NCBI GenBank assembly: GCA_964627625.1
Contig: CAZVJB010000012.1
Coordinates: 5,337 to 69,336, forward strand
Source: an uncultured Halobacteriales archaeon
GTDB taxonomy: Archaea; Thermoplasmatota; E2; JACPAO01; JAHFTW01
DNA: 64,000 nt
Direction of reading: 5' to 3'
Within the stretch, counting starts at the first letter, position 1; each line of letters opens with the position of its first letter. Positions 7,410-43,728 of the stretch are shown here, one piece after another. A program made the position numbers and the translations under genes. The notes beneath the pieces were generated by a model. The model was not told the origin of the DNA. It saw only the letters and a program-made list of their open reading frames with translations, and made no database searches.

Positions 7410-7628
7410 TACGTCGGCCGGCTTCATCGGGTTCATGCGACGAAATTGGGTTCATGCGTGTTCCCCCAACGGCGGCCGGTGCCCCCGGCGGCCCTGCCTT
7501 CCACGCTCGCTTCGCATCGCGCGTAGGCCTGCCAAGCCCTCGCGTGACTCGCGGCACTCGTCTGCTCGCCCCGCACGGGGGCCAGTAATCCTTCCATTCC
7601 TTCAACAAGGCGACGACGCCGCCGTCGG
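7410..7628 (-). repeat. Dispersed repeat copy 2, left part (interrupted by the island)
   Basis: Closely matches the reverse complement of ~49977-50180 and stops exactly at CCGTCGG. Confidence 0.92.
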
Positions 7629-7644
7629 TAATCTCTCTCTGGTG
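7622..7644. other. attL: core CCGTCGG (7622-7628) plus arm CTCTCTCTGGTG (7633-7644)
   Basis: Core repeated at 43589-43595; arm is the exact reverse complement of 43570-43581. Confidence 0.85.
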
Positions 7645-7873
7645 TTATCAAATTTATTTTGGGTGGGGGAGGCGCGGAACTGGGCTTCGGGGGGTTCCGT
7701 CAACAGCCCTTTCCTAACTAAGGGCAGACTTTGGGGGGGCCCTAGCCCCCACGAAGGCGGACATGAGGATAAGGGTATGGGATAGGTGAATGGAGACACA
7801 CAGGTGCGCAAGTGCCGAGTGACTCCACAAAAACAAAAGGAAGGTTGGATGGCAATCCAGAGTCTACTGCGAC

Positions 7874-8185
7874 TCATAAATTCGCCTCGCGGGACCGTTT
7901 CGGCCTTGTTGGCTTGGCCACTGTTCGTGGCGTTCGGCCCTGCTTGGCGTTGTCGGCTTTGGGTGTTGGTGGTGAGAGGGTAACGACGGCGGCAATGGCG
8001 GCCAGCGCGTCGGCCTGGTCAGCTCCCTCGTATAGGGCGAACTCGTTGCAGGGGGAGCTTCGGTGGGCGCGCCGGGCGTGGAACTGGAGGCGTGCCGGTA
8101 CGGTATACCAGTGGGGCCCACACATCAGCCACCGGATGGGGCATGGGACGCCGCATCCAGGTACGTGGCACAAGTGCTCTGTCAA
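7874..8185 (-). CDS. Small virus-like Cys/His protein
   Basis: TTG start overlapping the upstream stop; HLCHVPGC..LMCGPHWYTVP putative Zn-binding pattern. Confidence 0.65.
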   Translation of the reverse strand: MTEHLCHVPGCGVPCPIRWLMCGPHWYTVPARLQFHARRAHRSSPCNEFALYEGADQADALAAIAAVVTLSPPTPKADNAKQGRTPRTVAKPTRPKRSREANL

Positions 8186-8556
8186 ACGAGCCTCCTCTGA
8201 ATCAGAAGTGGTTCGGGCATCATAGGTGTTGTGACGGCTTGCCTCGGGTCCGGGAATGCCGGGTCCAATCGGTCCGGTCGCCCGTCCCAGCGTACGGGGA
8301 CGAATCGATTGTCGATATGCCGCAACTGAGTCGGCCTGGACCACCCAGGCACCCAGCACGCCATCATGTACCCCGTGCCGTCGGTTTGCCCGTTCGCTGT
8401 GAAGCCCGGACGCGCAGGCAAGGGGTAGGCAGCCGCCGCAGGGAAGATTCGCCAGAATCGCTTGTAACGCGTCTGCACTTCAAGGAAACCAGCATCAAGC
8501 CGCCCCTCTTCGTCGATTTGCAAACTCCTCATGGCTTTCGGCATCAGGTGTGCCAT
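8182..8556 (-). CDS. Hypothetical protein
   Basis: MAHLMPKAM... start just downstream of the 14-bp repeat block; stop coupled to the next gene. Confidence 0.5.
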   Translation of the reverse strand: MAHLMPKAMRSLQIDEEGRLDAGFLEVQTRYKRFWRIFPAAAAYPLPARPGFTANGQTDGTGYMMACWVPGWSRPTQLRHIDNRFVPVRWDGRPDRLDPAFPDPRQAVTTPMMPEPLLIQRRLV

Positions 8557-8740
8557 AGGCCGTCCTACATACGCCGTCCTACATGCGCCGTCCTCCACAC
8601 CCCGTCCTTCTGTTGGGAGCCATCGGGCACGGCCACAAATCGCAGTCGGAATCGGGTCGTTAGAGGTCGTTTTCGTGCAATTCGTTCTCAGCGGAGTGTG
8701 CCATAGTCCGTCCCCCATGGCCCGTCCCCCATACGCCGCC
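8548..8740. repeat. Two blocks of 14-bp tandem repeats (iteron/operator-like)
   Basis: CCGTCC at 8560, 8574, 8588, 8602 and at 8708, 8722 (partial 8736); both blocks begin with GTGTGCCATAG (8548, 8696). Confidence 0.8.
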
Positions 8741-8781
8741 ATCAGGAGAAACCACTGTTGGGCGTGCATTGGTGTTTGCCA

Positions 8782-8988
8782 TCATTCCCACCATCGGGCC
8801 AGCGGAACCGTCAGCGTATTCAGAACTTCCTCGGCAAAGGCCCGCATGTAGGCGACGGGCATGTAGTGCGCATCATCATGGTCCAGCAAGAAGTCCGTCG
8901 CGTACATTCGCACGAGACCCGGCTCGTGCGGTCCTGGACCATGCTTGGCGGCAAACGCCTGAGCGACCACCTTGGGGTCCGGCTTCAC
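8782..8988 (-). CDS. Small hypothetical protein
   Basis: GTG start overlapping the upstream TGA, preceded by a GGAGGTG SD. Confidence 0.6.
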   Translation of the reverse strand: MKPDPKVVAQAFAAKHGPGPHEPGLVRMYATDFLLDHDDAHYMPVAYMRAFAEEVLNTLTVPLARWWE

Positions 8989-9503
8989 GCCGACACCTCC
9001 GCGGCCAAAACTGCCGCCATCGTGGGGGCGACTTCCCGGGTCGGCCAAGCCGGACGAGGCATCACGTGATAGACCACCCGGGGACCAAACGTGCGGCGGG
9101 TCACTAGGCCGACGGCCGCCAAACGGCCCAGCGCGTGCTGTGACGTCGACCGTGGCATAGCCAGCGCATCAAGCACGTCGCGCTGGAACACCGGCGCAAG
9201 GCGCTCCACCACGCGCAGCACGCCGTACTGTTTCGGCGTCAGGCTAGCCAATGCGGCCAACCGGCTGGCAATCTCAGGCGGCGGCCGAGAGCCCGCAAAG
9301 TGCAACAACCGCACGTCCTGGCGAACCAGCCAGACCAAGCCAAAGCGCGCAAGCAACCGGACGTGATGCGCCAAGCAACCAGCCGGAAGATTCGTGGCCG
9401 CCGCCAAGCGACGAAATCCCAAGCCAGGCTGGGCCGAGAGTGTGTCGAGAATCAATTGCCGCCGCGGATGGGCAGCCACGTTGCCGGCGCGGATGCGTTG
9501 CAT
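8985..9503 (-). CDS. Double winged-helix DNA-binding protein
   Basis: HPRRQLILDTL..PGLGFRRL..LAHHVRLL and a second wHTH QRDVLDALAMPRSTSQHALGRL. Confidence 0.8.
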   Translation of the reverse strand: MQRIRAGNVAAHPRRQLILDTLSAQPGLGFRRLAAATNLPAGCLAHHVRLLARFGLVWLVRQDVRLLHFAGSRPPPEIASRLAALASLTPKQYGVLRVVERLAPVFQRDVLDALAMPRSTSQHALGRLAAVGLVTRRTFGPRVVYHVMPRPAWPTREVAPTMAAVLAAEVSA

Positions 9504-9592
9504 CAGAACACCGCCTTCCCGGGGCACGCAGGGTAAGTGCATTCGGCGGTGCAGGCGCGCCCACAATACGGGCACACGGGCAGGGCGATCAT
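9503..9592 (-). CDS. 29-aa Cys-rich microprotein (CPxCG type)
   Basis: MIALPVCPYCGRACTAECTYPACPGKAVF; start and stop both overlap neighbours (ATGA, TGATG). Confidence 0.6.
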   Translation of the reverse strand: MIALPVCPYCGRACTAECTYPACPGKAVF

Positions 9593-10068
9593 TGCGTCGC
9601 CTCCGCACGCCAAACCGCCCGAGGCGCCGGTTCGGCGCCACGGTACGTCCGGCCAGCCGCCATGGCGCGCAGGCGCATCGTCGCCTCCGCACGCAGGAGT
9701 AGGCGTTCCGCGTACGATTGCGAAGCGTAGTGCGACGGCCAGAAATCGCCGGCAACCTCCGCGAGGTCATCGACGGGTGCGCCGTCCAATTCGTCGCGGC
9801 CGTAGCCGGCCAGTTCGGCGGCGCTTCGGCTAAGGCGTCGCGCCCAGGCCGGCGTCGGCTCGGGCAATTCGTGGAGGGCTCGCTCGGCGCATGGACCGCA
9901 CGTCGCGTGTCGTCCGGCGGGGTACTCCGCGGCCAGTAGTAGCGGCGTGGAGCACGCCGCGCACGAGGCGAGGCGGGCCGTCGGGATGCGCGGGCAGTGG
10001 GGGCCGTGCGGTTGCGGGTAGGGGCAGCTGGGGCGCATGCATTTCGGGTCGTTTTCAGTTCGGGCCAT
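9589..10068 (-). CDS. Zn-finger hypothetical protein
   Basis: CMRPSC..HGPHC, CAAC..CGPC; start MARTEND at 10068. Confidence 0.6.
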   Translation of the reverse strand: MARTENDPKCMRPSCPYPQPHGPHCPRIPTARLASCAACSTPLLLAAEYPAGRHATCGPCAERALHELPEPTPAWARRLSRSAAELAGYGRDELDGAPVDDLAEVAGDFWPSHYASQSYAERLLLRAEATMRLRAMAAGRTYRGAEPAPRAVWRAEATQ

Positions 10069-10617
10069 AGGGCACCGAGAAGGGGCTCTGCGAATCCCAT
10101 AATGGGCCAACGGGCGCAAGCGCCGTGGCCCATGTTGGGTGAGTGTTGCTCCTTTCGGCGCCTGGCCCGAACGGACTCGACCCGAAACCGCCCCCAGCAG
10201 CCCCACCCAACCGCACGGCCCCAATTCTTCAAGTCGTGCCGGCCGGGCAACGATGCGCGGCCCGCAGGCCGTGCATCGTTGGGACGCGCAGGAGAGCCGG
10301 CGCAGCCGGCCGACAAGCGGCCCTGCCCGGACGGAGGTAGTCTGGTCGGAGATATCATTCGTCCACGCTGCCGCGCGTCCGATTGCCACGCCGCGTCCTT
10401 TGGGGCGCCGTAATCCGCGTCTTGCCGAGCCGCGCGCCAGTGCGTTGCCGAACGCGACTCATGCCCGTATGGCTGGAATCGCCGGCATGCACGGCTCGGC
10501 ATCTCGTTTCGTGCGCTGTCGGCAAGCTCGAGGAGGAATAGCCGGCCTCTGCGGCATCACCGCATGCCCAAACCCCGGTTCGATGCACTATTCATCCACA
10601 CCGGGTTTGCTGGTTCC

Positions 10618-11094
10618 ATGGATTGGATCATCGATGTCGTGTTGCCCGCCGGAATTACTGTAGTGGGCATTTTCGCTGCCTTCCAACTTGACCACCTGAT
10701 CGAACGGAGGGGCCGCCGACGGCGATTCGAGGCTACCTTGAGTGACTTGTGGAAAAGCGTCCAGACGAACTTGGCGGTGCTGGGCAGAATCGAGGTGCAA
10801 CTTCGCGCAGGGAAGACCTCTACACAGGCCAACCTGGAATTCTTCATGTGGGACATGCATCGAGACAGCATGGCAGCCGCCGTGAATGACAATGGCCTGC
10901 GAACTGGGTTTGCACGAATGTTTGAAAACTTTCGCCGGATCGACGACGCGATAAGCCGCCTGCATGACGACCCACCAGAAGGTATGGCCGAGGCTCTGCG
11001 AATCACCGTACTAGAGCGGAGTGCCGCCGCAATCGAACACGCCCGCAAACTGGAAGACAGAATCAGGAACCAGTTGAACGTGACGCCCTCCTGA
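10618..11094 (+). CDS. Single-TM helical hypothetical protein
   Basis: N-terminal TM, then RRGRRRR and L..NL; same layout as 37317-38156. Confidence 0.7.
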   Translation: MDWIIDVVLPAGITVVGIFAAFQLDHLIERRGRRRRFEATLSDLWKSVQTNLAVLGRIEVQLRAGKTSTQANLEFFMWDMHRDSMAAAVNDNGLRTGFARMFENFRRIDDAISRLHDDPPEGMAEALRITVLERSAAAIEHARKLEDRIRNQLNVTPS

Positions 11095-11113
11095 TGCCAC
11101 AATCCGATGGAGG

Positions 11114-12601
11114 CTATCGTGGCGTTGCGGTGGGCGCACGCGCCGCGTCGACGATGGGCCTAGGAGGCTCTACGTTCCACAACGCTCCCATGACCCCCGG
11201 GCCCAGGAAAGCCGCGAGCTGGCCAGTCGGAGTGTTCTGACCCATGACCTTGCCAAGTCTGAAGGCCCAATTGAGGCCCTTGGAGTCTAGGATGGCCGAA
11301 ATTGGCTCGATGATACCTTTCAAGTCCGAGGTCATCCGGTCTCCATCGGCCACCGCAAGCAATGCGTCTCGCTTGTTTCCGTAGTTCGGGGCGGCACTTC
11401 GGATTTTTGATCGGGCGTCCTCCCATCCCTTGTGCCCAAGCGCGACGAGTACCTCGTCGGCCACGTAGAGATTTTCTGTTTCGTGACAGGCCAGCTGAAG
11501 AAATTTGATTCTCTTCTGCGGGTGTGTGTTCTCGGCAGGAAGTGCCTCATCCGCGTCTAGTAGGGCATAGCCCCGCAAGCCTTTCGCTTCATCGGACAGC
11601 GTCTCGAAGATTTCTTCCAGCTTCCGCTGGTACTGTTTCACTTCTGGGCCACCGTTGCACGGGACAACAGCTAACCGAGGGCCGTTCTGGCGAGGAACTT
11701 GGCTCCATGCCCGGTAATCGTCGTCCCCTTCAACGAGCACGATTGGCGCTCCGAACAGAGGCCCCATCAGGACGTGCCCGCCCAAGATTGCGGTTAGCTC
11801 TCTTTCGTGTCGTGAAACCGGCTCCGCCTTAAGATCCTGTTCCCGGCGATTCATGTGAATCAGGCTCGCACGTTCAGCTCCGTAATGCGCCAATCCTGCG
11901 ACAAGTGTAGTGCTGTGCGTGGCAACAATCATCTGAATTCCGAAGTGGCTAGAGACCGTGCATAGAAAGTCGGCTAGTCGTTCTTGCAGGTCGGGATGAA
12001 GATGAGTGTCGGGCTCATCCAACAGCAAGAGCGGGGCAGCCCTCTCCTCCAGCTTCCAGATGGCGCACATCGTCAAGACGTCGATACCTAGGGCGAAACT
12101 CTCCGCCTCACCTGAGCTCAGCTGGCCCACCTGTCCAACCACCTCTTGCGTGTCCTTCCGTTTGAGCTCGTACGGAGGATTGCGATTTCGAAAGATTAGC
12201 GCGAAGTCGGGTAGAAGGGGCGCCACGAGATTGGCCAACTCTTTCGGAGGTAGAGGAATATCGGGACGGTCGATACTGCCGCGTGCCGCCATGTAGGTTT
12301 GAATCCGAACCACCACGTGCTGTCGGTATTCCGCGTGCAGGTTTGCATTCGCCACATTTTGGCGCGTTGCGGGATCGGATTGCTGAACCAGGTAGCTACC
12401 TTCGTAGGTGATGTTGCCTGGCCGCTCGGGCACAATGTAGTGGCGCTGCGACGCGTCCTGGTTGCGGATTGCCCTAAGCAGCTGGCTCTTTCCGGATCCG
12501 TTCTTACCCATCACGATTGTCATGGGTGTGAGTCCTCTCAGTTTCCACTCGCCCCCGCCCTCCAAGAATGGGGGCTTGGGCACGTTCAATTCAGTTGTCA
12601 T
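11114..12601 (-). CDS. OLD-like ABC ATPase plus TOPRIM nuclease
   Basis: GKNGSGKS, LSSGE, LLLLDEPDTHLHP, ATHS; TOPRIM VLVEGDDD and LLDAD. Confidence 0.85.
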   Translation of the reverse strand: MTTELNVPKPPFLEGGGEWKLRGLTPMTIVMGKNGSGKSQLLRAIRNQDASQRHYIVPERPGNITYEGSYLVQQSDPATRQNVANANLHAEYRQHVVVRIQTYMAARGSIDRPDIPLPPKELANLVAPLLPDFALIFRNRNPPYELKRKDTQEVVGQVGQLSSGEAESFALGIDVLTMCAIWKLEERAAPLLLLDEPDTHLHPDLQERLADFLCTVSSHFGIQMIVATHSTTLVAGLAHYGAERASLIHMNRREQDLKAEPVSRHERELTAILGGHVLMGPLFGAPIVLVEGDDDYRAWSQVPRQNGPRLAVVPCNGGPEVKQYQRKLEEIFETLSDEAKGLRGYALLDADEALPAENTHPQKRIKFLQLACHETENLYVADEVLVALGHKGWEDARSKIRSAAPNYGNKRDALLAVADGDRMTSDLKGIIEPISAILDSKGLNWAFRLGKVMGQNTPTGQLAAFLGPGVMGALWNVEPPRPIVDAARAPTATPR

Positions 12602-12836
12602 GGCGCCTACGCTGCAACGGCGCGACCTCCGTGAATCATATTCAACCTTTCGCGCGGCGGCACGCTTGCCTGCGGGCGGCGCCGACCCGCACGAGGGAAC
12701 TCCCTGGCGGTGACTTCGCCGCCCTGGGCTGCGCTATCCCGACGAGAATATCGTCGTGGATCCCTGTTTCACTGTTGACTCGTGCCCAGCAAACGCGCGG
12801 GCCAAAAATGAAGAGCGGTTACCCCCTGGCCGCCTT

Positions 12837-13484
12837 ATGACGTGGGCTGAATCATTGTTCTCATGGAAGGAGATCATCCTTGCGGGGGCCGCCTTTCTAA
12901 ACCTTGCATGGCGCGTTTTCGCCGTACGTCACGAATCGTCCAAGTCATCGCGCGAACTTCTAGACATGGCGGAACGACTGGAGGCTCATGAGGGACCCGA
13001 GGCCGACTTGCTTCGGGCCCGGCACTACGAAGTCCTCCGGCGATGGTACTTCCGGAGCCGCTCGTGGAAATCACTTGGCGCGGTGTCTGTCTGGACCCTT
13101 GCGGGCCTGGCCATCATGCAAACCGGCTCTGAGAATGCCAGTGTTCGCCTGCCCTTTCTCGTTCTCGGTTTGGCATGTCTTGCTGCCGCCGGCGGATCAT
13201 ACCGGAAGTGGCAAGGATATGTGGAGACCGGGCAGTACCAAGTACACCAAATTCTTGAGCGAAAGACTTCGGACGCCTATGAACGATATGCCGCATCCAA
13301 TCCAATGGAGAATTTGACGCCCGAGGAGAATCGATTCGACGCCTGGTTTGACAGAGTGGGAACCCGCCTTGCCAAGGTAGGTTGGCTCCGCAAAGCCCGC
13401 ATGCCGACGTTAGTACTTCTTGGCGCTGCCGCCGCGATATTGTTTGTCGCGTCCTACTTCTACGGTTGGAATCTGCGCCTTTAG
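12837..13484 (+). CDS. Multi-pass membrane protein
   Basis: About 4 hydrophobic segments; resembles 38995-39612. Confidence 0.7.
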   Translation: MTWAESLFSWKEIILAGAAFLNLAWRVFAVRHESSKSSRELLDMAERLEAHEGPEADLLRARHYEVLRRWYFRSRSWKSLGAVSVWTLAGLAIMQTGSENASVRLPFLVLGLACLAAAGGSYRKWQGYVETGQYQVHQILERKTSDAYERYAASNPMENLTPEENRFDAWFDRVGTRLAKVGWLRKARMPTLVLLGAAAAILFVASYFYGWNLRL

Positions 13485-13677
13485 TTCCCCGTTCTGCCAA
13501 GGACACGCCCAACACTTTGCACAACCCTGGGTAGGATTGCGCCGCCGCTAGTTGGGTCGCCTGGCCGCGAATGCGCACTGCACAATCATTCGACCGATGC
13601 CGAAGTGCGCCGCGAACGCAGCAGCATGACTGGCAAAGCGTTGTCGTCGATGGGAGTTCCAGTACCGGCTCCGGCCG

Positions 13678-14511
13678 CTATCGCGCGTTGGCCGGGCTCT
13701 TCGGCTCACGGTATTCGGGCTTGGCGGTTTTGAGCAACAGGGTGGTGCTGTCACCGCCGAGGCCACATCGCTTGCAACCCCAAATCGTGCTTTCCTTGAA
13801 GCCTGGCGTGTTGTCCTTCTCGCGCTCAATCTTGCCTTCGATGCACAAGGGGCAGCGCAGCGTGTAATCGACGATGTAGCCGCGTTCCCGGGCGTCCAGG
13901 AGTTCGCATTGCTGCCAGTGGAGCTCGCCGTCCTCCAGGAGCTTCGCACGAACCTTTTCGTGGGGATACGGTTCAAGGCGGGGGGGTTTGCCGCCGCTGG
14001 AAAGCGTGGCATCCAAGGCGAACATGGTCTGGAAGCAGATAACGCGCAACGGATCGCGGTCGGTTGCCTCGAACGACGGGTCGCGTTTCAGTAGCGCGAG
14101 CATGGGGCCCACGGCCGCCGCGGCCTTCTTCAGATCCCGCGTATGCGCGTAGCAGTTCCGGATGTCGTTGAGGAGCACGATGTTGTGGTGAGTAACCGGG
14201 TCCAGCGCCCCTGCCTGGTCGAGTTGTTTCACCTTACGGGAGAACCGCCAATGCTTCTCCAATTGGAGGGCATTAAGGAGCTTGTCGAGCCAGTACTCGA
14301 CATACAAGTGCATGGTGATGACATGGCTTCGTACGAGATCGGGATTGAAGATTTCGTCGACAAGATCCCAGATGGCGTCCGGCGGACCAGTTGCAGCTTG
14401 TCCCCGAGCATCCGCGAGGGTCGCATACATCAAGGGCCGCGCATCCGCGTTCTCCAGTAGGCCCTCCGCGTCGTCCACGTCTTCGTCGTCGAACTCGGTG
14501 CCGTCACCCAT
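13678..14511 (-). CDS. HEPN/MtlR-like domain plus C-terminal Zn ribbon
   Basis: HLYVEYWLDKLL..FSRKV..LNDIRNCYAH; CPLC..CKRC. Confidence 0.7.
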   Translation of the reverse strand: MGDGTEFDDEDVDDAEGLLENADARPLMYATLADARGQAATGPPDAIWDLVDEIFNPDLVRSHVITMHLYVEYWLDKLLNALQLEKHWRFSRKVKQLDQAGALDPVTHHNIVLLNDIRNCYAHTRDLKKAAAAVGPMLALLKRDPSFEATDRDPLRVICFQTMFALDATLSSGGKPPRLEPYPHEKVRAKLLEDGELHWQQCELLDARERGYIVDYTLRCPLCIEGKIEREKDNTPGFKESTIWGCKRCGLGGDSTTLLLKTAKPEYREPKSPANAR

Positions 14512-14607
14512 GCCGAGGCCAACGTACGCTTGCAGTATAAGTTCGCACATCAATCAGGCAATCCGGCTAGCCGACGCCAATATCCGTCGGCTTTCGTTCC
14601 AAAGTCC

Positions 14608-15567: not shown

Positions 15568-15748
15568 TGGCCGATTCGATGCGGCTCCAGGGTTGGGGAA
15601 ATCCCGCTCCATGCCGGGCCTGGCCCGTTCCCTTTGTTCCGACGGGGCATGGATAGCATCCAGCCGGAAACCCTGGCCCCGAAGCGGTGTCCAATGTCGG
15701 GGCGCAATCCCTTCGTGGTTTTCGCGAGGATTGCCACGGGGGCTTGGT

Positions 15749-18033: not shown

Positions 18034-18131
18034 CGCAACTTGCAAGGGCGGGCACATAATAACCTGCACTCGGATTTCCACCGGAAGCCATCCGCCAAGA
18101 CCTATATGGCGCGCACTTATCAGTCAAAATC

Positions 18132-33944: not shown

Positions 33945-34148
33945 GTGGGGAAGGTCGCCAATCGCGAACCACCTAAGTGGTCAACGAGAGGTATGCAGCG
34001 GCGAAGCGCGACAGCAGCATCGGCGGAGCAGCGGCGTCGACGCAAACCCTCCGAGGAGAGTTTCACTACCGCCCTCCCATGACGAACGCCCCGGAGCCTT
34101 GGGCTGCTCCACGCGACATCGCAAACTTGCAAGGGCAGCTTTCACTCC

Positions 34149-34958: not shown

Positions 34959-35406
34959 TCAGTCCCCCTGGGCCTTTGCCATGCCCACGTTGCTTGGACA
35001 CGAACCGCCGACTTAAGGGATTGTAGGCGCGATTAGCGCCAGAAGCTCCATCTTCGAGGCGGCACCCGTTCACAGCCCGCCGGAACCCCCCGGCCTGGAC
35101 TGCAGCAGCCGGTTGAAGGTGAACGGCCCGACCGGTATATCCCGCGGCGGAAAGCGTGACACCGCGGGACCCTCACGTGCCGAGCCTCACGGTAAATCCA
35201 CCCTGAAGTGAGTGCCGTAGCCTGGGCGGACAAGGAGCGGACAAACGGTCCTGGCGAGAGGGGCACGGTCGGGCATCGTCCCCGCAGGCACTGGACGAGA
35301 TACCAAAGGTGCCGGGCGAGCGCGGTGCGGGCGGCATCCTGGGTGGCCTCGCTGGCCCCGTCACGAGCTGCGGGGGGGGGGTGTTCCGCTTTGCTCCTCG
35401 GACTCG

Positions 35407-37059: not shown

Positions 37060-37316
37060 AAGGCGCCATGGCTCTCTCCTCTCTAAACATCCTCGGTTGG
37101 TCTCGCCATGACGTTCGCCCCGCTATCCCGGCACGCAAGCCGAGCAGCGGCCGCGATATCCCTCGTCGGAGATTGCCAGCCACGGCTTGCCATCACGCAG
37201 GGCCGGCACAAGCCACTTCGGGATTACATCACCATGCCAGGCACAATTAACGGACCAGAAGACAAGAGGGCGGCCGTAGCCGGCAAGCCTTTGGGCGGCC
37301 CGTACTTGGAACGCGT

Positions 37317-38156
37317 GTGCAGTGGTTCCCGGGGCTCCTGCAGGCCGGAGCGCCTCCGTCCTCCCAACCGCAAAGCGGCTGGGACGTGGCGGCTTTTGGG
37401 GCGGTTCTTGGAGCGTTTCTGGCAATCGTACTTTCGGAACTGGTTCGCTCTTGGAAGCGTAGGAAAACGTACCGCCAGCTGAGGGCGGCGCTGCTTCTCG
37501 ACTTGTGCCACAACCTCCGAGTTATCGATTACATATGGAGGGCTGCCGGGGAGCCATACAATCACGTCGATGGCCCTCAAACCGACGCGTTCATGACGGG
37601 AACGGGCAAGGTCAGTGCTAATGGAGGCCGCTTTCTCCCGGTCTACCTGGACACATGGGAGGTGTCGCGGCCACTTCTTGTGGGATTGGCGTCCCGGCCT
37701 CTCGAAGTTGTGAGGTTCGCCCATGCGTTCGAAGCGATGAAACGCTGCACGACATGCACTGAAGAGGCCTGGCCAGGACGGGCCCACTTGCTTCTCTTAG
37801 CGGAGAAAAGCCCCGCCGTCTTTCAGCCATCTGGACTGGCGGAGAACGGACTCCAAATCCATGGATTATCAAGGTCGATGATTGCTGCGACGTGGGCGGG
37901 TCACGCAAAGGAGCAGTTGGTTGACCTCATTCGCGACACTGGTAACGCAAAAGAGCGCAAGTTTGCCGATGATGTGGCCAAGAACCCATGGTCAATCGGG
38001 GCCATGACTGGGTCGGTTGACAATCGAAGCGGCGCAATGTTCAGGCGAGAACTGGTTGAACTGAACCGCGACGATGCAGCCAAGCGCTGCCAGGGCAAAA
38101 TGAGCCCCGGGCAGGACGAAGCAGTCAGTCTCAAGCTAATGGGACGTCGCCGATAG
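37317..38156 (+). CDS. Single-TM hypothetical protein
   Basis: AFGAVLGAFLAIVL then KRRK..LLLDLCHNL. Confidence 0.65.
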   Translation: MQWFPGLLQAGAPPSSQPQSGWDVAAFGAVLGAFLAIVLSELVRSWKRRKTYRQLRAALLLDLCHNLRVIDYIWRAAGEPYNHVDGPQTDAFMTGTGKVSANGGRFLPVYLDTWEVSRPLLVGLASRPLEVVRFAHAFEAMKRCTTCTEEAWPGRAHLLLLAEKSPAVFQPSGLAENGLQIHGLSRSMIAATWAGHAKEQLVDLIRDTGNAKERKFADDVAKNPWSIGAMTGSVDNRSGAMFRRELVELNRDDAAKRCQGKMSPGQDEAVSLKLMGRRR

Positions 38157-38421
38157 GTCCGGACGTTCGGGCCACACAACATCGCTCACGACTTGCGGAC
38201 AAACAATCGCGCCGGCCTGGGAACGCCGGGGAGCTCGTACCATGGGACGCCATCGCTTGTCGTCCGGGGCGTGCGAACTGTTCGGACGCATGCTCAGCCG
38301 AGTCATGCAATCCAATACGGCCTGGCACCGCCCAAACGCGGAGGGGCGGGCTCAACAGTACCTTCTCCTACCTCCTCAAAACCCTCATGGGCTGACCGGC
38401 CGTGCCGGCTACGCGTTGTCC

Positions 38422-38910
38422 ATGCAGCCCCCAGATCAGCCCCCCAACTCAAGAGACGACTACGTCGATAATGCCATTCGCTGGCGAGACCGCTTCCTAA
38501 GTGAAACCGCCCTGAGCTCAGGTGCAGTCCTCCTGTATGCAGGGACCGCATTCGGATTCCTGCTTCAAGCACTTCCCGACTTCGCCCTACAGCCGGACAA
38601 CTTCGCGTTCTACGCGCTTATGGGATTTGGCGCATCGTGCCTTTGCGGCCTGCTTGCCCTAGTAAGCCGAGCCAACTTCTCAGCAAGCATGGCTACCAAA
38701 GCCGCCCATGAGCTTCTGACACGTGCCAAGGCTATTGAACTGGGTCGAGGGCACCAGGATGTGGCCTTCGGCGACGAACGTGTTCTTGCGGCCGCGGGCC
38801 AAGCCAACATGGCCCTCCGCAACCTTCATCTCTTGTTCCAGGCCCAGGCAACTTTGGCCGCATTCTCGACCACCACCCTGTTCTTCTCCCTCCTCTTCCG
38901 CCCGCATTGA
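38422..38910 (+). CDS. 3-TM membrane protein
   Basis: Three hydrophobic segments; start MQPPDQ. Confidence 0.6.
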   Translation: MQPPDQPPNSRDDYVDNAIRWRDRFLSETALSSGAVLLYAGTAFGFLLQALPDFALQPDNFAFYALMGFGASCLCGLLALVSRANFSASMATKAAHELLTRAKAIELGRGHQDVAFGDERVLAAAGQANMALRNLHLLFQAQATLAAFSTTTLFFSLLFRPH

Positions 38911-38994
38911 AGTCGCGCCAGGGAGTCATGGAAAGCGCGGTCAGCCGATACCAAATGCCCCGTTCCAACTGGCCGTCCGACCGGTGCTGCAAGC

Positions 38995-39612
38995 CTACCC
39001 AGGATTTGTCGGCGGTTGCCTTCCTTTTCGCGGCCGGTTCTTTTCTTCCAGCGGGGCGATGCCATTCAACCAGCCCTTTACCCCAAGACGATTGTTGGGT
39101 GGCGGGATGTCCCTTGTATCCTCAAGAAATTTGGCCCGCGCTTGAAAGCACATTGCGCGATACCTCGCCGTCGCGTCGTCAGCTCTTCCTACAATCCGTT
39201 CCTTAAGCCTGAACGTGACGGAGTTCGTGAACCAAACGACCCCGCCCACCACAATCATAGTGCCAAGAAGTGGCATCCAAACATCCTTGGGGGCGAACGT
39301 CGCCCCTACGTAATTGCGTAAATCTGGTGCGGCAAAGGGAAGCGATACAAGTAACGATAAACTCCAAAGGAGAAGAAGCGTGAGACCTTCCCGTCGAGCT
39401 GGAAAGTGAAATCGGTAAAGCCGTTCCAGTAGTGCCGCTCGGTAGGCATGGCGAAGCGGATCATCGGCCGCAGTTTTCTCAATGCACTCCTGGAGGGCGA
39501 GTACATCGGAGAAATCTCTTCGTAAGAAGAAGGAAACGATTGTCCAGGCTAACGAGAGCAAACCCGTCGCCGCGATGGCCGCCGCAACTACAGTCGTGGG
39601 CTCCCAAGTCAT
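38995..39612 (-). CDS. Membrane protein, similar to 12837-13484
   Basis: MTW..LSLAW..RAALLERLYRFHF; 3 TM. Confidence 0.65.
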   Translation of the reverse strand: MTWEPTTVVAAAIAATGLLSLAWTIVSFFLRRDFSDVLALQECIEKTAADDPLRHAYRAALLERLYRFHFPARREGLTLLLLWSLSLLVSLPFAAPDLRNYVGATFAPKDVWMPLLGTMIVVGGVVWFTNSVTFRLKERIVGRADDATARYRAMCFQARAKFLEDTRDIPPPNNRLGVKGWLNGIAPLEEKNRPRKGRQPPTNPG

Positions 39613-39741
39613 GGCATGGCATTTGCGCGTCGAGCCTTGAGGCTTGCTGGCAGCCGATTGGACCAAACCCAGAACGGAGATTGTCACAGCGACGCGCCCC
39701 GCGCGCCAACCTCCATTAGGGCGTCCGGACGTGTCGGGGCC

Positions 39742-40098
39742 ATGGAGTGGTTGTGGGGAGGCCTGCTTGGATGGGGTCTGAGCGTTGCGACGGCCAGCGC
39801 CGTGTGGCTAGTTCGCAGTTCACGGGACAGAACCGCCATGGATTCCATTGTCGCGTTTCTCGAACATGAATATACGGGGGACAACGACCAGTTTTCCTGG
39901 GCTTCAACGCAGACGATTGGCTCCGCTTGCCGCTTCTCGGACGACAAGGTACGGGAGCTTTGCGTGCGCGATTCGCGCGTTCGGCGATCGACCGGAGCTG
40001 ATCCGGACAAATGGGGGTTAAGCGCAGTGGTTGGAGAAGTGCAGGTTCCGCGGCGGACATCGCCGCGTGGCGTCCGCGGACCGAAGACACTCCTTTAA
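39742..40098 (+). CDS. TM plus small wHTH-like protein
   Basis: N-terminal TM; WASTQTIGSAC..VRELC..RVRRST..KWGL. Confidence 0.6.
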   Translation: MEWLWGGLLGWGLSVATASAVWLVRSSRDRTAMDSIVAFLEHEYTGDNDQFSWASTQTIGSACRFSDDKVRELCVRDSRVRRSTGADPDKWGLSAVVGEVQVPRRTSPRGVRGPKTLL

Positions 40099-40208
40099 CG
40101 AAGAGAGACCGGGCGGGATTCTCGGTGCCGTGCGCCTCCACGAACGCACGCCGGGGCATGTGCCCCACCTTGGAACTCTCCTCGTCGGGATTGCCGTCAT
40201 GTCAGGTT

Positions 40209-40739
40209 TCAGGCGGCCGTCCTTCTCGCCCACGATGAAAAAGCTCCGGCGGCCTTGAGGAAGTGTTTTCGTGCTTCGTCAATGTCATCTGCAATCTGAT
40301 GAACCTCCTCAGCTTCTTTTTGGCCCGATTCGTTTGTCAATCCTTTGGCCCGATGCGCCCGTGGCTTCCAGTGAACCGGTATCATGCGGCGCCCCTGCCG
40401 AACGTACATCCACGTCGAATGCACGACCATGTTCCGTTGTTGTTGGACCCTGTCAACTTCACGAATTGCGTCGTGCAGTGCGGCGCGTGACTCTGCGTTC
40501 TGGGGGCCGGCAAGCCGATGTTCGACCAGGGCTCCAAAGGTGTTTAGCAATTCGGTGGTGGATCGATTGGCGAGCAATAGGCGACCCACTTCATGGTCAG
40601 GGCCCACCAGCTCGACGGCCGTTTCCCGGATGTTAAATTCAAGGAATGAAAAACCCGACACAACGCGCCCGATGGCCATCTCGAGAGACCTTCGTGGCCT
40701 GACTGCGACCTTCTCGGGACTTTCCGGCTTGGGGCACAC
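40209..40739 (-). CDS. Stand-alone HEPN-like protein
   Basis: AIGRVVSGFSFLEFNI..QQQRNMVVHSTW. Confidence 0.75.
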   Translation of the reverse strand: MCPKPESPEKVAVRPRRSLEMAIGRVVSGFSFLEFNIRETAVELVGPDHEVGRLLLANRSTTELLNTFGALVEHRLAGPQNAESRAALHDAIREVDRVQQQRNMVVHSTWMYVRQGRRMIPVHWKPRAHRAKGLTNESGQKEAEEVHQIADDIDEARKHFLKAAGAFSSWARRTAA

Positions 40740-40815
40740 AGGTACGAGATTCCAAAGCGACGGATAATCCTTCCATGGGGAGACGAGAGTTTAGGTGGGT
40801 GGAATCCTCTGCGGC

Positions 40816-41052
40816 CTAGCGCCTGAACCTCGCCCATAAAACGCCGAGCCCAAGCACGGCAAGGATTGTGGCGGGTGGGCCGGGGCCTGGTGTTGCAATC
40901 TCGGGTAGCTTCGGCGGTGCGGTAGCTGCGCGGCGGAAATCGTCAACGGTGGCCAGTTCGACAACACCGAGCAGAACAACAATCCCGATGGAAAACATTA
41001 CGAGTACTCGGAGCCGCCAATGTTGCGGCATTTGCGCGAGGAAGGGGCACAT
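40816..41052 (-). CDS. Small membrane protein with a sorting-signal-like C-terminus
   Basis: N-terminal TM; ends TPGPGPPATILAVLGLGVLWARFRR. Confidence 0.5.
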   Translation of the reverse strand: MCPFLAQMPQHWRLRVLVMFSIGIVVLLGVVELATVDDFRRAATAPPKLPEIATPGPGPPATILAVLGLGVLWARFRR

Positions 41053-41054
41053 GT

Positions 41055-42338
41055 TCAAAGGCTGGTCTCCGGTGCTAGAGTTTCGCGGTTCATGATTTCG
41101 GCCAACAGAGCGCATTGTCCAGCCCGTATGGCCGCCAATGCACTATCGACCTCGAATCGATCCAAGACGTCGGAGGTTCCTGGATGAATCTCGGCATGCC
41201 GTTGGTCCTGGACGCGCAACAGCTTACGCCAGGCGTCCTTTTCGGCTCGTTCCAAGATTTGGGGGAGGTGGATTCCGAAGAAGTGCCGGTAGGCCCATTT
41301 GGCGCCCCGGCGTTTGCTGTGAAGATCTTGAAACGAAATGCGGCTTCGTCCGCTGGGACGGAGAAACTCGATGAAAGCCAGCTCAACGCTTCCTGCTTTC
41401 TCCACCAATGCCCATGATTTGGTGCCATTTTTCCGGTCCAGCGTAAGCACGGAGGTTTGCATGGCTGCCTTGCGATGCTGGGCCCCCAGGTGTGAAAACC
41501 ACTGTGGTTGGTAGGCGAAGAAGAGGTCATGGAGGAGCGTTTCGACGGCTGAAAGGGCAACCACGATGCAAAGCCGATAGTACGTTTGTGCATCGACGTT
41601 GCGCCCACCGAAAACGGGTTGGTCGTTTCGGATGTGTCGTGTGACGGCCGCGAGATCCTCAATGGATGCGAGGCGGCGGAAGAAGTTCCGCACCGCCACA
41701 TGCTGTCGAACTGCTTCCTGAGCCTTGACATCTAGGATATCTTGTGGTTGCATCGTCGACCTTGCTGCGTCGAAGACAAAGACCAGTTGTTGGGACCACG
41801 CGTTCGGTGGCCCCTCTTGGGGTCGTTGATGATCAGAGTAGGTGTACCGTTGCCCCGTGTAGGGCGCAAAGGTGTATTTTACGCGTGAACCGCCCGCGGC
41901 GCCTGCGTGCTCAAAGAATTGCACCATGCCGCGCGAAACGCCTGCCCAACGGACGGCCAGCGGAACCGGGTTCCAGGGCGCTTCATTCTCGGCAATCTGC
42001 ACACCCATTCGGTCCATGACGGCGATGCAGGCTCTTTCCTGGGCCAGTAGGTGCTCGTAGGCGCGGCGGATGGTCACGTCGAGGTCCAAGTCGTCGCGCG
42101 CATGGAGCTGGTGTACTATGAGCCTAGCTGGCGCACAACGATGGCCTCGGATTCGCTTTCCGCTCTGCAGTTCCAGGACCGCGCTCCCAGCTGGGCGCCG
42201 CGGTTCAGGCGCTCCGCGTTGGGGCCGGGGAAACCAGCCGCTACCGGCCATTTCTCCGCGAAGGCGCCGGGGCGGCATTGACGAAATACTCCATCGAATT
42301 CTTCCGTGCAGCGTGAGGCGAGGAAATTGTTTCCACAA
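41055..42338 (-). CDS. Protein with a C-terminal HEPN-like domain
   Basis: LCIVVALSAVETLLHDLF..SFQDL..QDQRHAEIH; true start probably downstream of 42338. Confidence 0.72.
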   Translation of the reverse strand: MWKQFPRLTLHGRIRWSISSMPPRRLRGEMAGSGWFPRPQRGAPEPRRPAGSAVLELQSGKRIRGHRCAPARLIVHQLHARDDLDLDVTIRRAYEHLLAQERACIAVMDRMGVQIAENEAPWNPVPLAVRWAGVSRGMVQFFEHAGAAGGSRVKYTFAPYTGQRYTYSDHQRPQEGPPNAWSQQLVFVFDAARSTMQPQDILDVKAQEAVRQHVAVRNFFRRLASIEDLAAVTRHIRNDQPVFGGRNVDAQTYYRLCIVVALSAVETLLHDLFFAYQPQWFSHLGAQHRKAAMQTSVLTLDRKNGTKSWALVEKAGSVELAFIEFLRPSGRSRISFQDLHSKRRGAKWAYRHFFGIHLPQILERAEKDAWRKLLRVQDQRHAEIHPGTSDVLDRFEVDSALAAIRAGQCALLAEIMNRETLAPETSL

Positions 42339-42376
42339 TAACCGCGCTAGACGGGAATTAGAATTTGTATCGGCTG

Positions 42377-43561
42377 CTAAGTAGTTCCGGCTGCTGGCGC
42401 CTGGGCTTGGCGGCGCAGAATTTCTTCCAGCAAAGCCGACATGCGCGAGACACTTGATTCAGGCGCAATCGTTCCTGCAAGTGTCTTTGCATCATTCATG
42501 ATGCGTCGCTGCATGTCGTCCAGGTTTAGGTGGATGTACGTACTGGGCGTTTTGCTTCCAGGCGACCAGCCGAAGAACTGCCGCATCTGCGGCTCGTTCC
42601 AGCCAAGCCGGGCTTTCTCGGTTGCACACGTGTGGCGGAAGTCGTGTGGTGTCAGTTTCTGCGTTTTATGCGACGCCAGGCCGGCTTGCGAGCACGCGTC
42701 TTGCATGGCCATACGTGCGGCCGTGGTAGGAAGGCGTTTGATTCCTCGACGGTGCGCCGTAACGAATAGCGGAGCATTCGGCTCACTGGCGGCAGGATGC
42801 ATCTTCATCCATGCAAGCATCTGTGTTCGGCCGCCAGCCATATGAATGGTTCTCGGTCCACTTTTCAAGTCCGGCTTGTAAATGGTGCTTGTCTTCATGG
42901 GCGGCCACATCGGCCTTTCGCCACGCAGACGTAGGACGAAGGTGTCTCCATTATCGGTCACGTCGCCCACATCCAGGCTAACAAGCTCTCCGATGCGGAA
43001 GCCGGAGTGACGAAGGGTCGCCCACAGGGCGGCGTTGCGTACATGCACCGGGAAGGCCGGGTCGAGGTTGTAGCGCGGCCGACCACCCACAAGCAGGGCA
43101 GCGCAATCCGATTCACTGATAATCTGTCCAACGACTGTTTCGCGCTCCCGGCGAACCTTCAGCGCCCTCTCGATTATCTCGTGGTCCTTCCTGCGACGAA
43201 GCTCCTCCTTGAGACTACTAGCAAGAGGTTGCCGCGTCCACAGCCAACGCACGTACTGCCGCACGAGTACCAACTGCGTGCGCAGCCCCCGCAATGCGTA
43301 GTGCCCGCGAAACGCTGAAACCATTGCCGTGTATTCAGCCACGGAGGCCTCCGTGTAGGGCTTATTCAACGCGTGATCGCCAAAGCGAATCGCCAACAGG
43401 CGATGACGAACGCTGTTGCGCTTCAGGCAAGCGTTGTTGGATTCCACTGCGTACAAGGCCATGTCAGCCTGGTTGTGCCGAGTGGCCTTCATCAGTATAC
43501 GATTCAATTCAGGGTCATCGTTCAGGGTCATGCTTTCAGGTTCTCCATTGTGGATTTCCAT
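42377..43561 (-). CDS. Tyrosine recombinase/integrase
   Basis: SGFRIGEL (R), LKSGPR (K), PHDFRH (HxxR), FFGWSPGS..STYIH (W, Y); full-length. Confidence 0.95.
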   Translation of the reverse strand: MEIHNGEPESMTLNDDPELNRILMKATRHNQADMALYAVESNNACLKRNSVRHRLLAIRFGDHALNKPYTEASVAEYTAMVSAFRGHYALRGLRTQLVLVRQYVRWLWTRQPLASSLKEELRRRKDHEIIERALKVRRERETVVGQIISESDCAALLVGGRPRYNLDPAFPVHVRNAALWATLRHSGFRIGELVSLDVGDVTDNGDTFVLRLRGERPMWPPMKTSTIYKPDLKSGPRTIHMAGGRTQMLAWMKMHPAASEPNAPLFVTAHRRGIKRLPTTAARMAMQDACSQAGLASHKTQKLTPHDFRHTCATEKARLGWNEPQMRQFFGWSPGSKTPSTYIHLNLDDMQRRIMNDAKTLAGTIAPESSVSRMSALLEEILRRQAQAPAAGTT

Positions 43562-43569
43562 TGGATTAC

Positions 43570-43595
43570 CACCAGAGAGAGCCCACTACCGTCGG
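43570..43595. other. attR: arm CACCAGAGAGAG (43570-43581) plus core CCGTCGG (43589-43595)
   Basis: Mirrors attL; the core begins 27 bp beyond the integrase ATG. Confidence 0.85.
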
Positions 43596-43646: not shown

Positions 43647-43728
43647 CGGCTTCCGTGTAATGGGCGGTTCGGTCGTCGTCGCGTTGCGTGCATGCGATGA
43701 GGCAAGAAAACGCGCGAGCGAAACCCAG

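What the first reader, a model, noticed from the sequence alone, without database searches (positions are those of the whole stretch)
7622..43595. 36-kb tyrosine-integrase element that uses a multicopy dispersed repeat as its attachment site
Seen: the repeat at 7410-7628 stops at CCGTCGG and resumes at 43589 with CCGTCGGAGGACTGC. Joining the flanks rebuilds a copy nearly colinear with the intact copy at 49926-50180. Inside the ends is a perfect 12-bp inverted repeat, and the predicted excised junction CACCAGAGAGAG-cccac-TA-CCGTCGG-TA-at-CTCTCTCTGGTG is nearly palindromic. An intact integrase sits at the right end. Known: archaeal SSV1/pNOB8-type integrases mostly target tRNA genes via longer att identities, and repeat targeting is known for bacterial REP-targeting IS (IS1397, IS621). 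Inference: this is a repeat-targeting island needing only a 7-bp core, with many potential landing sites (intact cores at 4334, 48985, 49977). Best candidate for an undescribed system here.
Basis: partly seen in the sequence, partly recalled or inferred. Interest (0 to 1): 0.9.

Follow-up and report, generated by a model that had tools for sequence, protein, structure and literature searches.

The report
Archaeal integrase island splitting a dispersed repeat
A 36-kb mobile island with its own tyrosine integrase sits exactly inside one copy of a roughly 145-copy repeat in an uncultured permafrost archaeon, and related islands in sister species also land in their hosts' repeats rather than in the usual tRNA genes.

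Summary
A 35,960-bp insert (7629-43588) splits one copy of a non-coding dispersed repeat (171 nhmmer hits, 145 merged loci in the 2.4-Mb genome). It is flanked by a 7-bp direct repeat, CCGTCGG, and has a perfect 12-bp inverted repeat just inside each end. An intact tyrosine integrase lies 28 bp from the right junction. Joining the flanks in silico gives one full-length repeat copy with no indel at the join.

The host is a Thermoplasmatota MAG from permafrost. The island belongs to a genus-wide family of integrative elements with conserved end motifs. Of 10 distinct integrase loci carrying the right-end motif, 5 abut tRNA 5' ends. Four abut dispersed repeats, in four species and from two well-separated integrase clades. 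One abuts another kind of site.

"Only a 7-bp core" is not supported: the heptamer occurs 1464 times in the genome and only 71 of those lie in repeats. I could not obtain an empty site, a circular junction, or the genomic context of the closest integrase homologs.

Verdict: a real integrase-driven island. Repeat targeting is well supported but rests on sequence alone. It is a new variant of a known kind. The cargo is defence-like (OLD-family nuclease, PARIS-like ATPase) plus a 3418-aa Rhs protein.

The parts
7390..7628 (.). Left half of the interrupted host repeat (profile positions about 97-345, read on the minus strand), ending in the core
7622..7628 (.). Left copy of the 7-bp direct repeat CCGTCGG (attL overlap)
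   Evidence: pattern match
7629..43588 (.). Island E1, 35,960 bp. GC about 58-62% in most 1-kb windows, against 62-68% in the flanks
7633..7644 (+). Left inverted-repeat arm CTCTCTCTGGTG, 4 nt from the core. Family motif TANNCNCTCTYTGGTK
7661..7699 (+). Conserved left-arm box: GGGTGGGGGAGG, then hairpin CGGAAC(7675-7680)/GTTCCG(7694-7699), preceded by an AT-rich stretch. Found at 15 places in 8 of 38 genomes of the order
8985..9530 (-). About 180-aa double winged-helix (ArsR/MarR-like) regulator. It is the conserved C-terminal part of the listed ORF 8985-10502 and is 79% identical (tblastx) to its counterpart in element E2
11114..12601 (-). ABC-type ATPase with DUF4435; best PADLOC match is fused AriAB (PARIS-like), E 1.5e-21
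18132..28388 (+). 3418-aa Rhs-repeat protein with fn3 domains and DUF6531
32100..33944 (+). OLD-family ATPase-TOPRIM nuclease (GajA/Old-like). No GajB-like partner was seen among the ORFs scanned
35407..37059 (-). PAS/HisKA/HATPase histidine kinase
41055..42338 (-). 427-aa protein next to the integrase; no hit in Pfam, PADLOC, NCBIfam or PHROGs
42377..43561 (-). Tyrosine integrase, 394 aa, intact. R189, K233, H306-x-x-R309, W332 and Y342 are invariant in the alignment of 16 homologs
43570..43581 (+). Right inverted-repeat arm CACCAGAGAGAG, 7 nt from the core and 8 nt upstream of the integrase start. Family motif CACCARAGAG
43589..43595 (.). Right copy of the 7-bp direct repeat CCGTCGG (attR overlap)
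43589..43680 (.). Right half of the interrupted host repeat (profile positions about 19-103)
49880..50230 (+). Intact copy of the same repeat, used as comparison; core CCGACGG near 49977. An orthologous copy is present at the same locus in G004

Best explanation
E1 (7629-43588) is an integrative genomic island of an uncultured Thermoplasmatota archaeon. It entered the chromosome by conservative site-specific recombination catalysed by its own tyrosine integrase.

Inferred mechanism: in the excised circle the attachment site lies just upstream of the integrase gene. It has two inverted arms (family motif CACCARAGAG) on either side of a TA-flanked 7-bp overlap, CCGTCGG. The integrase pairs this site with the same heptamer in the best-conserved stretch of a non-coding host repeat of about 350 nt, and exchanges strands across the overlap. 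This leaves the two complementary repeat halves and the 7-bp duplication that we see.

Shown: the split repeat, the duplication, the arms, the intact integrase, and the family-wide conservation of this end architecture.

Inferred: that the integrase did it, that the target is chosen because it is the repeat (sequence or shape around the core, not the heptamer alone), and that other copies can serve as landing sites.

The island is one member of a genus-wide element family whose integrases mostly use the 5' ends of tRNA genes. Two integrase clades have moved to dispersed repeats. One uses the first of three tandem 9-10-mers at the 5' edge of the repeat (G001, G004, G010). The other, E1's clade, uses the central core. 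The cargo looks like defence and conflict genes.
For: **Anatomy.** See the observation check.

**Integrase.** PF00589, intact, catalytic residues invariant. None of the 20 island ORFs scanned against Pfam hit a transposase family.

**Family architecture.**
- The right-arm motif (at most 1 mismatch) lies just upstream of the integrase in 10 distinct loci.
- Downstream of the motif, 5 of the 10 continue into the first bases of a tRNA (His, His, Arg, Arg, Arg).
- Four continue into repeat sequence: L017 (this island), L020 (G010), L023 (G004) and L026 (G001).
- One, L033, continues into another site (CCTCCGG).
- The host-side flanks of L020, L026 and L023 have 14, 46 and 37 further matches in their own genomes.

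**Left ends.**
- The left-end motif occurs at 15 places in 8 of 38 genomes of the order, all in this genus.
The 8 fetched copies run on past the cut point.
- The same element end (127 of 127 nt identical) adjoins two different host flanks in G001.
- The short sequence shared by left and right junctions follows each species' own repeat variant: CCACCGA in G010 and ACCGCGGA in G001 (read by eye). For G004 only the right junction, with CCACTGA, was seen.

**Within this genome.**
- A second left end (C2:47068, 91% identical over 88 nt) abuts another repeat copy at CCGGCGG.
- Element E2 shares the left module with E1 (79-85% at protein level). It sits at the 5' end of tRNA-Gln with a 12-bp duplication.

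**Tree.** The three edge-site repeat integrases form a 100/100 clade. E1's integrase lies in a separate 100/100 clade of 14 rows that holds no known tRNA user.

**Reads.** A 142-nt contig bridges attL. Island and flank have the same k-mer depth in X1 (about 73-75 against 70-72).
Against: - Only E1 has both junctions on one contig. In G001 and G010 the left and right junctions are on different contigs and their pairing is inferred. For G004 only the right junction was seen.
- No empty site, circular junction or excision product was seen. The repeat half has depth about 1232 in X1, so contigs cannot link the unique flanks across it.
- The nearest species (G004) is rearranged here and has no repeat next to the dodecin gene. 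No orthologous empty site exists in the genomes held.
- The contexts of E1's closest integrase relatives (P0002, P0004-P0012, P0014) could not be fetched. The one available (L033) is a non-tRNA site of unknown copy number.
- Two family left ends with core CCTCCGG lie in single-copy flanks, so the family also uses unique sites.
- Junctions of the E1 type were found only in this genome among the 38 of the order.
- The second left end (E3) has no right end in the assembly, and it shares only about 100 nt with E1.
- The sequences flanking the core in the repeat do not resemble the island's arms (read by eye). How the target is recognised is therefore unexplained.
- This is a short-read MAG (91% complete, 39 contigs), and several contigs end in this repeat.
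Confidence: 0.78

Rival explanations
1. The integrase recognises only a short GC-rich core (CCGNCGG plus flanking TA). It can land anywhere the core occurs, and hitting a repeat copy is coincidence because the repeat happens to be rich in this heptamer.
For: Identity between island and target is only 7 bp. The heptamer occurs 1464 times and 71 of these are in repeats, so about 5% of random core hits would fall in a repeat. The second left end uses a different position in the repeat and a core that differs at the central base. Family members with core CCTCCGG sit in single-copy DNA.
Against: Two independent E1-type left ends both abut repeat copies (about 0.05 squared if independent). A separate integrase clade does the same in three other species, with cores that follow each species' repeat variant. 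The core lies in the best-conserved, highest-occupancy columns of the repeat, between dyad arms.
Confidence: 0.12
2. The arrangement is an assembly or rearrangement artefact. The island is real, but the two repeat halves come from different loci or from homologous recombination between repeat copies, so the locus never was a single intact copy.
For: Short-read MAG; the repeat is about 145-fold and several contigs end in it. Logan contigs break inside 7408-7641. Block 43.7-48.9 kb is inverted relative to its neighbour when compared with G004, and it is bounded by inverted repeat copies.
Against: The halves meet at exactly the same 7 bases and rebuild a copy with no indel. The attL junction itself is bridged by an independent contig with 0 differences. 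Even if the flanks were shuffled, each junction is still repeat-half against island end.
Confidence: 0.06
3. E1 is a DDE-type or other transposon with terminal inverted repeats, and the 7-bp repeat is a target-site duplication.
For: Inverted repeats near both ends and a short direct repeat. Twelve of the 20 island ORFs scanned have no Pfam hit at all and could hide an unknown transposase.
Against: The arms start 4 and 7 nt inside the ends, not at them. No transposase family was hit. In relatives with the same arms and an adjacent integrase, the 'duplication' is always a fixed sequence: the first bases of a given tRNA, or the repeat motif. That marks site-specific recombination, not duplication of an arbitrary target.
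Confidence: 0.03

Closest known systems
Non-suicidal ('classical', pNOB8-type) archaeal tyrosine integrases and their integrated elements (review PMC8371274; I read sections 18-19 and search passages)
   Same: The integrase gene stays intact on integration. attP lies outside the ORF. There is a short direct repeat at both ends, and the relatives in this genus target tRNA genes.
   Different: The target here is a dispersed non-coding repeat of about 145 loci. Sections 18-19 of the review list tRNA genes, a few unique intergenic sites and protein-coding genes, but no repeat family. Identity is 7 bp, against 12 bp for two tRNA-targeting family members where both ends were read. Sequence relationship to pNOB8 itself was not tested.
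pTN3-like integrases of Thermococcales (PMC5495485, passages; PMC8371274)
   Same: The attB is at the 5' part of a tRNA gene, so the tRNA is left downstream of the integrase side, as in the tRNA-using members of this family. pTN3 integrase also recombines dispersed identical segments and inverts chromosome blocks, which is a lead for the rearrangements seen at repeat copies here.
   Different: pTN3 integrase is of the suicidal SSV type: attP is 41 bp and lies inside the gene, which is disrupted on integration. Here the gene is intact and attP is upstream. No sequence comparison with Int-pTN3 was possible.
phiRv1 prophage-like element of Mycobacterium tuberculosis in the REP13E12 repeat
   Same: An integrase-driven element whose chromosomal site lies in a multicopy repeat family, so that it can occupy different copies.
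   Different: From recall, phiRv1 uses a large serine recombinase and the repeat has only a handful of copies. From papers I saw only that REP13E12 flanks phiRv1 and that Rv1586c is annotated as its integrase (PMC1931498, two passages). Bacterial, not archaeal.
   Same: Mobile DNA that uses a dispersed host repeat as its preferred target.
   Different: Those are small IS elements with DDE or DEDD transposases, some guided by RNA (recalled, not checked here). This is a 36-kb island with a tyrosine recombinase and a conventional att architecture.
XerA/dif chromosome dimer resolution
   Same: An archaeal tyrosine recombinase acting on a site with inverted arms around a short spacer.
   Different: The NCBIfam XerA model scores 51.3 bits against a cut-off of 220. 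The gene is inside a mobile island next to its own att site.

Membership tests
Tyrosine recombinase / phage integrase (PF00589) | Catalytic domain matching PF00589 above the gathering score | tested here: met
   58 bits against a cut-off of 27.1, E 1.3e-15, residues 171-346
Tyrosine recombinase / phage integrase (PF00589) | Catalytic R-K-H-x-x-R-H/W-Y residues present | tested here: met
   R189, K233, H306, R309, W332 and Y342 are invariant in 16 aligned homologs. Assigning them to catalytic roles rests on general knowledge of the family.
Site-specific integrative element (attL/attR from attP x attB) | Identical short core at both junctions, inverted binding arms around the core in the reconstructed attP, integrase beside att | tested here: met
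Site-specific integrative element (attL/attR from attP x attB) | Empty site and/or excised circle observed | tested here: inconclusive
   Contigs of X1 and X2 cannot cross the repeat. No syntenic empty site in relatives.
SSV-type 'suicidal' archaeal integrase | attP inside the integrase ORF, so that the gene is split on integration | tested here: not met
   The ORF 42377-43561 is whole and the core lies 28 bp upstream of its start
XerA (archaeal dif recombinase) | NCBIfam NF040815 at or above its cut-off | tested here: not met
   51.3 bits against 220
DDE/IS-type transposon | A transposase gene, inverted repeats at the very termini, target duplication of arbitrary sequence | tested here: not met
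   No transposase hit. Arms are inset by 4 and 7 nt. Relatives have fixed cores.
Provirus | Virus hallmark genes (capsid, terminase, portal) | tested here: not met
   0 of 10 unassigned island proteins hit any PHROG. No viral Pfam among the 20 ORFs. About 10 smaller ORFs were not scanned.
Repeat-targeting element (as a class) | Independent insertions of related elements in different copies of a repeat family | tested here: met
   E1 and the E3 left end in G000. L070 and L065 in G001. Right junctions of L020, L023 and L026. Counter-cases: L069 and L062 in single-copy flanks.
Gabija (cargo gene 32100-33944) | GajA-like OLD nuclease together with an adjacent GajB helicase | tested here: inconclusive
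   GajA/Old models hit (E 2.3e-22). The neighbour 34149-34958 has no PADLOC hit. Other neighbours were not scanned with PADLOC.

The most novel reading that the evidence does not exclude
The repeat and the integrases form a co-evolving pair. The repeat family is found in at least four species of the genus (G000, G004, G012 and, weakly, G006). Three sister species (G001, G004, G010) each carry a different variant of a tandem 9-10-mer motif at the repeat's 5' edge. On this reading the family serves as a multicopy landing pad, and resident integrases retune their att core to the host's variant. Integrase action on these roughly 100 dispersed att-like sites would then cause multi-site insertion of defence islands. 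It would also cause the repeat-bounded chromosomal rearrangements seen between species, as pTN3 integrase does in Thermococcus. At the extreme, the repeat itself is spread or homogenised by these recombinases.
Probability: 0.2. Interest if true: 0.8.

Novelty: new variant of a known kind. Interest (0 to 1): 0.62.

Why it matters
Archaeal integrases are thought to use tRNA genes almost exclusively, with a few unique sites. Here two clades in one uncultured genus appear to use a high-copy host repeat instead.

That gives an island dozens of possible homes in one genome: 61 copies carry the exact core. It can explain the same element end at several flanks in one MAG, and it places active recombination sites all over the chromosome.

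It offers a testable system for how tyrosine recombinases switch targets (tRNA 5' end to repeat), with natural att-core variants that follow host repeat variants.

It also flags an abundant, undescribed repeat family (1.4% of the genome) whose most conserved 27 nt contain the attachment core.

Practically, such integrases could be multi-site landing tools. Repeat-embedded islands are also a source of MAG fragmentation.

Tried and rejected
**Empty site in relatives.** The right flank and left flank were searched in relatives. Only single conserved genes match: the dodecin and an MBL-fold hydrolase. In G004 the two lie 28 kb apart in a rearranged order. A 784-aa ORF and no repeat lie beside the dodecin. 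This is not usable as an empty site, and not a refutation either, because G004 is a different species with about 70-80% DNA identity.

**Reads.** Only two runs of one sample hold the stretch, and one of them may be the source of the MAG. Both are kept as contigs. Loose ends at 7621 that continue as intact repeat sequence come from the many other copies (depth about 1232) and say nothing about an empty site. X3 laid nothing, and X2 has one uncovered bin; neither carries any meaning.

**Contexts of the closest integrase homologs.** Genome contigs gave 5 loci, none close. Metagenome contigs gave 27 loci, of which only the 1.5-kb L033 is close. Viral contigs gave 6 distant loci. In the phylum sample, 2 of 401 genomes matched at E 1e-35, namely this genome and G008. 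Phage and plasmid collections gave at most 32% identity over the catalytic half. The look-up of encoding contigs is marked closed and I did not call it.

**Is the repeat coding?** Rejected. There is no codon-phase signal, and the indels are mostly 1-2 nt. The ATG in its 3' part opens no consistent ORF in 22 full-length copies.

**Is the repeat a known RNA?** No Rfam hit at gathering threshold for the window, or at E 1 for one copy. There are no tRNAs in the window.

**Repeat as a promoter or leader upstream of genes.** Not supported by crude GC3-based gene calls. The gene beyond the 3' end of the profile is convergent in 56 cases and co-oriented in 17, among 79 copies examined. The gene calls are rough, so I draw no conclusion.

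**Right end of E3.** The repeat piece at C2:81634-81906 looked like the missing half, but the sequence shows no island end there.

**G044 pattern hit.** It lies in a coding region with no integrase nearby, so it is chance.

**Literature.** Searches gave no paper describing a tyrosine-integrase element targeting a dispersed repeat in archaea. I saw listings only, apart from the passages and sections named above. Supplements were not opened. S2 Fig of PMC5495485 was seen only as its legend.

Full report
**1. The observation.**
- The window reads CCGTCGG at 7622-7628 and at 43589-43595. Each copy has TA on its island side.
- A perfect 12-bp inverted repeat lies just inside: CTCTCTCTGGTG at 7633-7644 and CACCAGAGAGAG at 43570-43581.
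- The repeat finder pairs the sequence left of 7624 with 49978-50076 (99 nt, 97%). It pairs the sequence right of 43589 with 49915-49983 (69 nt, 88%).
- The flanks, joined by slicing in a script, match the intact copy at 86.3% over 293 nt.
- Against a profile built from the genome's copies they give one hit, positions 19-345, 291.5 bits, with no indel at the join. The separate halves score 214.2 and 70.0 bits.
- A 12-bp inverted repeat so placed arose in 13 of 200,000 random segments of equal length.
The insert is 35,960 bp.

**2. The host and the repeat.**
- The genome held for the window is 2.42 Mb in 39 contigs and 91% complete.
- Two relatives carry the record title 'Thermoplasmatota archaeon': a same-genus genome and a same-family genome whose loci are identical to L012 and L013.
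- The only runs holding the stretch are from one permafrost metagenome sample.
- Iterated nhmmer finds 171 hits of the repeat. They merge to 145 loci and cover 1.36% of the genome.
- The repeat is modular. Many copies hold only some modules.
- It is not coding. Column entropy shows no codon phase, and indels are mostly 1 or 2 nt.
- No Rfam family matches.
- The core heptamer (CCGACGG in profile orientation, position 97) lies in the best-conserved, most-occupied columns. Of 125 copies covering it, 61 carry it exactly and 14 carry CCGGCGG.
- It lies between dyad arms CCATTCC and GGAATGG. These are 66-99% pairable across copies, and one position shows CG, GC and AT pairs.
- Within the genus the repeat is detectable by DNA search in 4 of 13 genomes: this one, G004, G012 and, weakly, G006. 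In G012 mainly the 27 nt around the core are conserved, at 90-93%.

**3. The island.**
- The integrase (42377-43561, minus strand) is an intact PF00589 protein with the catalytic residues conserved. Its start lies 28 bp from the core.
- Cargo:
  - an OLD-family nuclease;
  - an ATPase-DUF4435 protein that best matches fused AriAB of PARIS;
  - a 3418-aa Rhs-repeat protein;
  - a PAS histidine kinase;
  - a small double winged-helix regulator.
- Ten unassigned proteins hit no PHROG, and no transposase family was hit. I read it as a cryptic integrative island with defence-type cargo, not a recognisable provirus.
- Flanking host genes are a geranylgeranyl-reductase-family oxidoreductase (5817-7124, minus strand) and a dodecin (43729-44013, minus strand).

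**4. Other elements in the same genome.**
- tblastn finds two more integrases, 29-31% identical. Both are next to tRNA genes, Gln and Lys.
- The one on C2 belongs to an element (E2, about C2:152,950-180,760) whose left module is 79-85% identical in protein to E1's. E2 is bounded by a 12-bp duplication of the first bases of tRNA-Gln (read by eye).
- A third left end (E3, C2:47068) is 91% identical to E1's over 88 nt, with the same arm. It abuts another repeat copy at CCGGCGG, at a different position of the repeat.
- E3 then diverges from E1, and no matching right end is in the assembly. The X1 and X2 contigs with 6 differences at 7618-7694 are this C2 copy.

**5. The family.**
- The left-end architecture has four parts: TA, an arm of the type CTCTYTGGTG, an AT-rich stretch, and a GGGTGGGGGAGG box with a hairpin. 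It recurs at 15 places in 8 of 38 genomes of the order, all in this genus.
- Hairpin covariation is modest: 3 of 6 pairs show double changes, and 1 of 500 shuffles reaches the score.
- The right arm CACCARAGAG sits just upstream of the integrase in 10 distinct loci.
  - Five run on into the 5' end of tRNA-His or tRNA-Arg.
  - Four run on into repeat sequence.
  - One (L033, the only close relative of E1's integrase with any context) runs on into CCTCCGG followed by a GC-rich palindrome.
- The host-side flanks of the three other repeat cases are multicopy in their own genomes: 14, 46 and 37 further matches.
- In G001 a left end cuts a repeat that has at least 39 other copies. The 8 fetched copies run on past the cut.
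- The same element end (127 of 127 nt) adjoins a second, different flank in G001 that shares only about 13 nt.
- These three species each have their own variant of three tandem 9-10-mers at the repeat's 5' edge. In each, the junction core matches that species' variant.
- As counter-cases, two left ends with core CCTCCGG lie in single-copy DNA.

**6. Phylogeny.**
- I built a maximum-likelihood tree of 36 integrases. Dropped rows: two duplicate loci, one pseudogene fragment, and the weakest hit, P0022.
- The three edge-site repeat integrases form a 100/100 clade. E1's integrase lies in a different 100/100 clade of 14 rows. tRNA users lie elsewhere.
- Deep branches are unresolved and the root is arbitrary, so I cannot say how often the target changed.

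**7. What could not be shown.**
- No empty site, no circle and no excision were seen (section 1 of the next steps).
- Island and flank have equal depth in X1, so nearly all cells of that population carry the island.
- The heptamer is common outside repeats: 1393 of 1464 occurrences. A 7-bp core alone therefore cannot explain a preference for repeats. What else is recognised is unknown, since the target's flanks do not resemble the island's arms.

**8. Comparison with what is known.**
- The 2021 review of archaeal tyrosine recombinases (PMC8371274, sections 18-19) lists tRNA genes as the main targets. It adds a few unique intergenic or coding sites, and no repeat family.
- It singles out pTN3-like integrases for using the 5' half of a tRNA. 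These are suicidal and have a 41-bp attP inside the gene (PMC5495485), which this family does not.
- The nearest conceptual precedents are bacterial: phiRv1 in REP13E12 (serine recombinase, recalled; passages in PMC1931498) and REP-targeting IS elements (recalled).
- Six literature searches found no description of this case.

**9. Verdict.** This is a real integrase-driven island in a split repeat copy. Repeat targeting recurs in the family and is the best reading, at about 0.78. It is a new variant of a known kind, of moderate to high interest. The co-variation of att cores with species-specific repeat variants is the most intriguing lead.

Noticed in passing
whole genome; window copies at about 4290-4640, 7390-7628 + 43589-43680, 48943-49190, 49880-50230, 56410-56770: An abundant modular non-coding repeat: 171 hits, 145 loci, 1.36% of a 2.4-Mb archaeal genome. 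Several contigs end in it. The most conserved 27 nt around the core are also multicopy in G012. Its function is unknown, and it has no Rfam match.
   Followed up: partly
L020 (G010), L023 (G004), L026 (G001); window 49913-49945 for the G000 version: The 5' edge of the repeat carries three tandem 9-10-mers whose sequence differs by species (CACGGA, CACCGA, CACTGA, CGCGGA types). They are near-uniform among the matched copies within G001, G004 and G010 (92-100% identity), which suggests concerted evolution or ongoing spread.
   Followed up: partly
G000:C2:152,950-180,760: Second integrative element (E2, about 28 kb) at the 5' end of tRNA-Gln, with a 12-bp duplication. Just outside its left end lies a right-arm-like motif of another family member, which suggests an older tandem element. 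A duplicate tRNA 3' fragment lies about 100 nt past the tRNA.
   Followed up: partly
G000:C2:47068-about 63,000: Left end 91% identical to E1's, abutting a repeat copy at CCGGCGG. It is followed by about 15 kb of lower-GC3 genes with no integrase and no right end: a decayed or rearranged element.
   Followed up: partly
G008:C14:70185-73950 (L063, L018): A mini-element of about 3.7 kb: a family left end, one integrase and tRNA-His, with a 12-bp duplication. This may be the minimal form of the family.
   Followed up: no
window 43.7-48.9 kb against G004:C9:230-247 kb (L011): Compared with G004, the block between the right repeat half and the inverted copy at 48943-49190 is inverted relative to 49.3-64 kb. 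The left flank's homolog lies 28 kb away in G004. Rearrangement breakpoints coincide with repeat copies.
   Followed up: partly
window 18132-28388: A single 3418-aa ORF with three fn3 domains, DUF6531 and at least seven Rhs repeats, inside an archaeal island. Its C-terminal tip and any immunity gene were not examined.
   Followed up: no
window 7661-7699 and 14 homologous left ends (alignment A2): A near-invariant G-rich box plus a 6-bp hairpin, 30-70 nt inside the left end and preceded by an AT-rich stretch. It could be an arm-type binding site, a promoter-proximal leader or a small RNA.
   Followed up: partly
G001:C212, C126, C224; G004:C48: Contigs break 126-580 nt inside the element's left end. 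In G001 the same end (127/127 nt) has two different host flanks. This means either multiple copies or insertion-site polymorphism in the population.
   Followed up: partly
window 8697-8985: tblastx similarity between E1 and E2 continues for about 96 codons past the stop of the regulator gene, in the same frame. This is either a conserved non-coding stretch or another overlapping gene.
   Followed up: no
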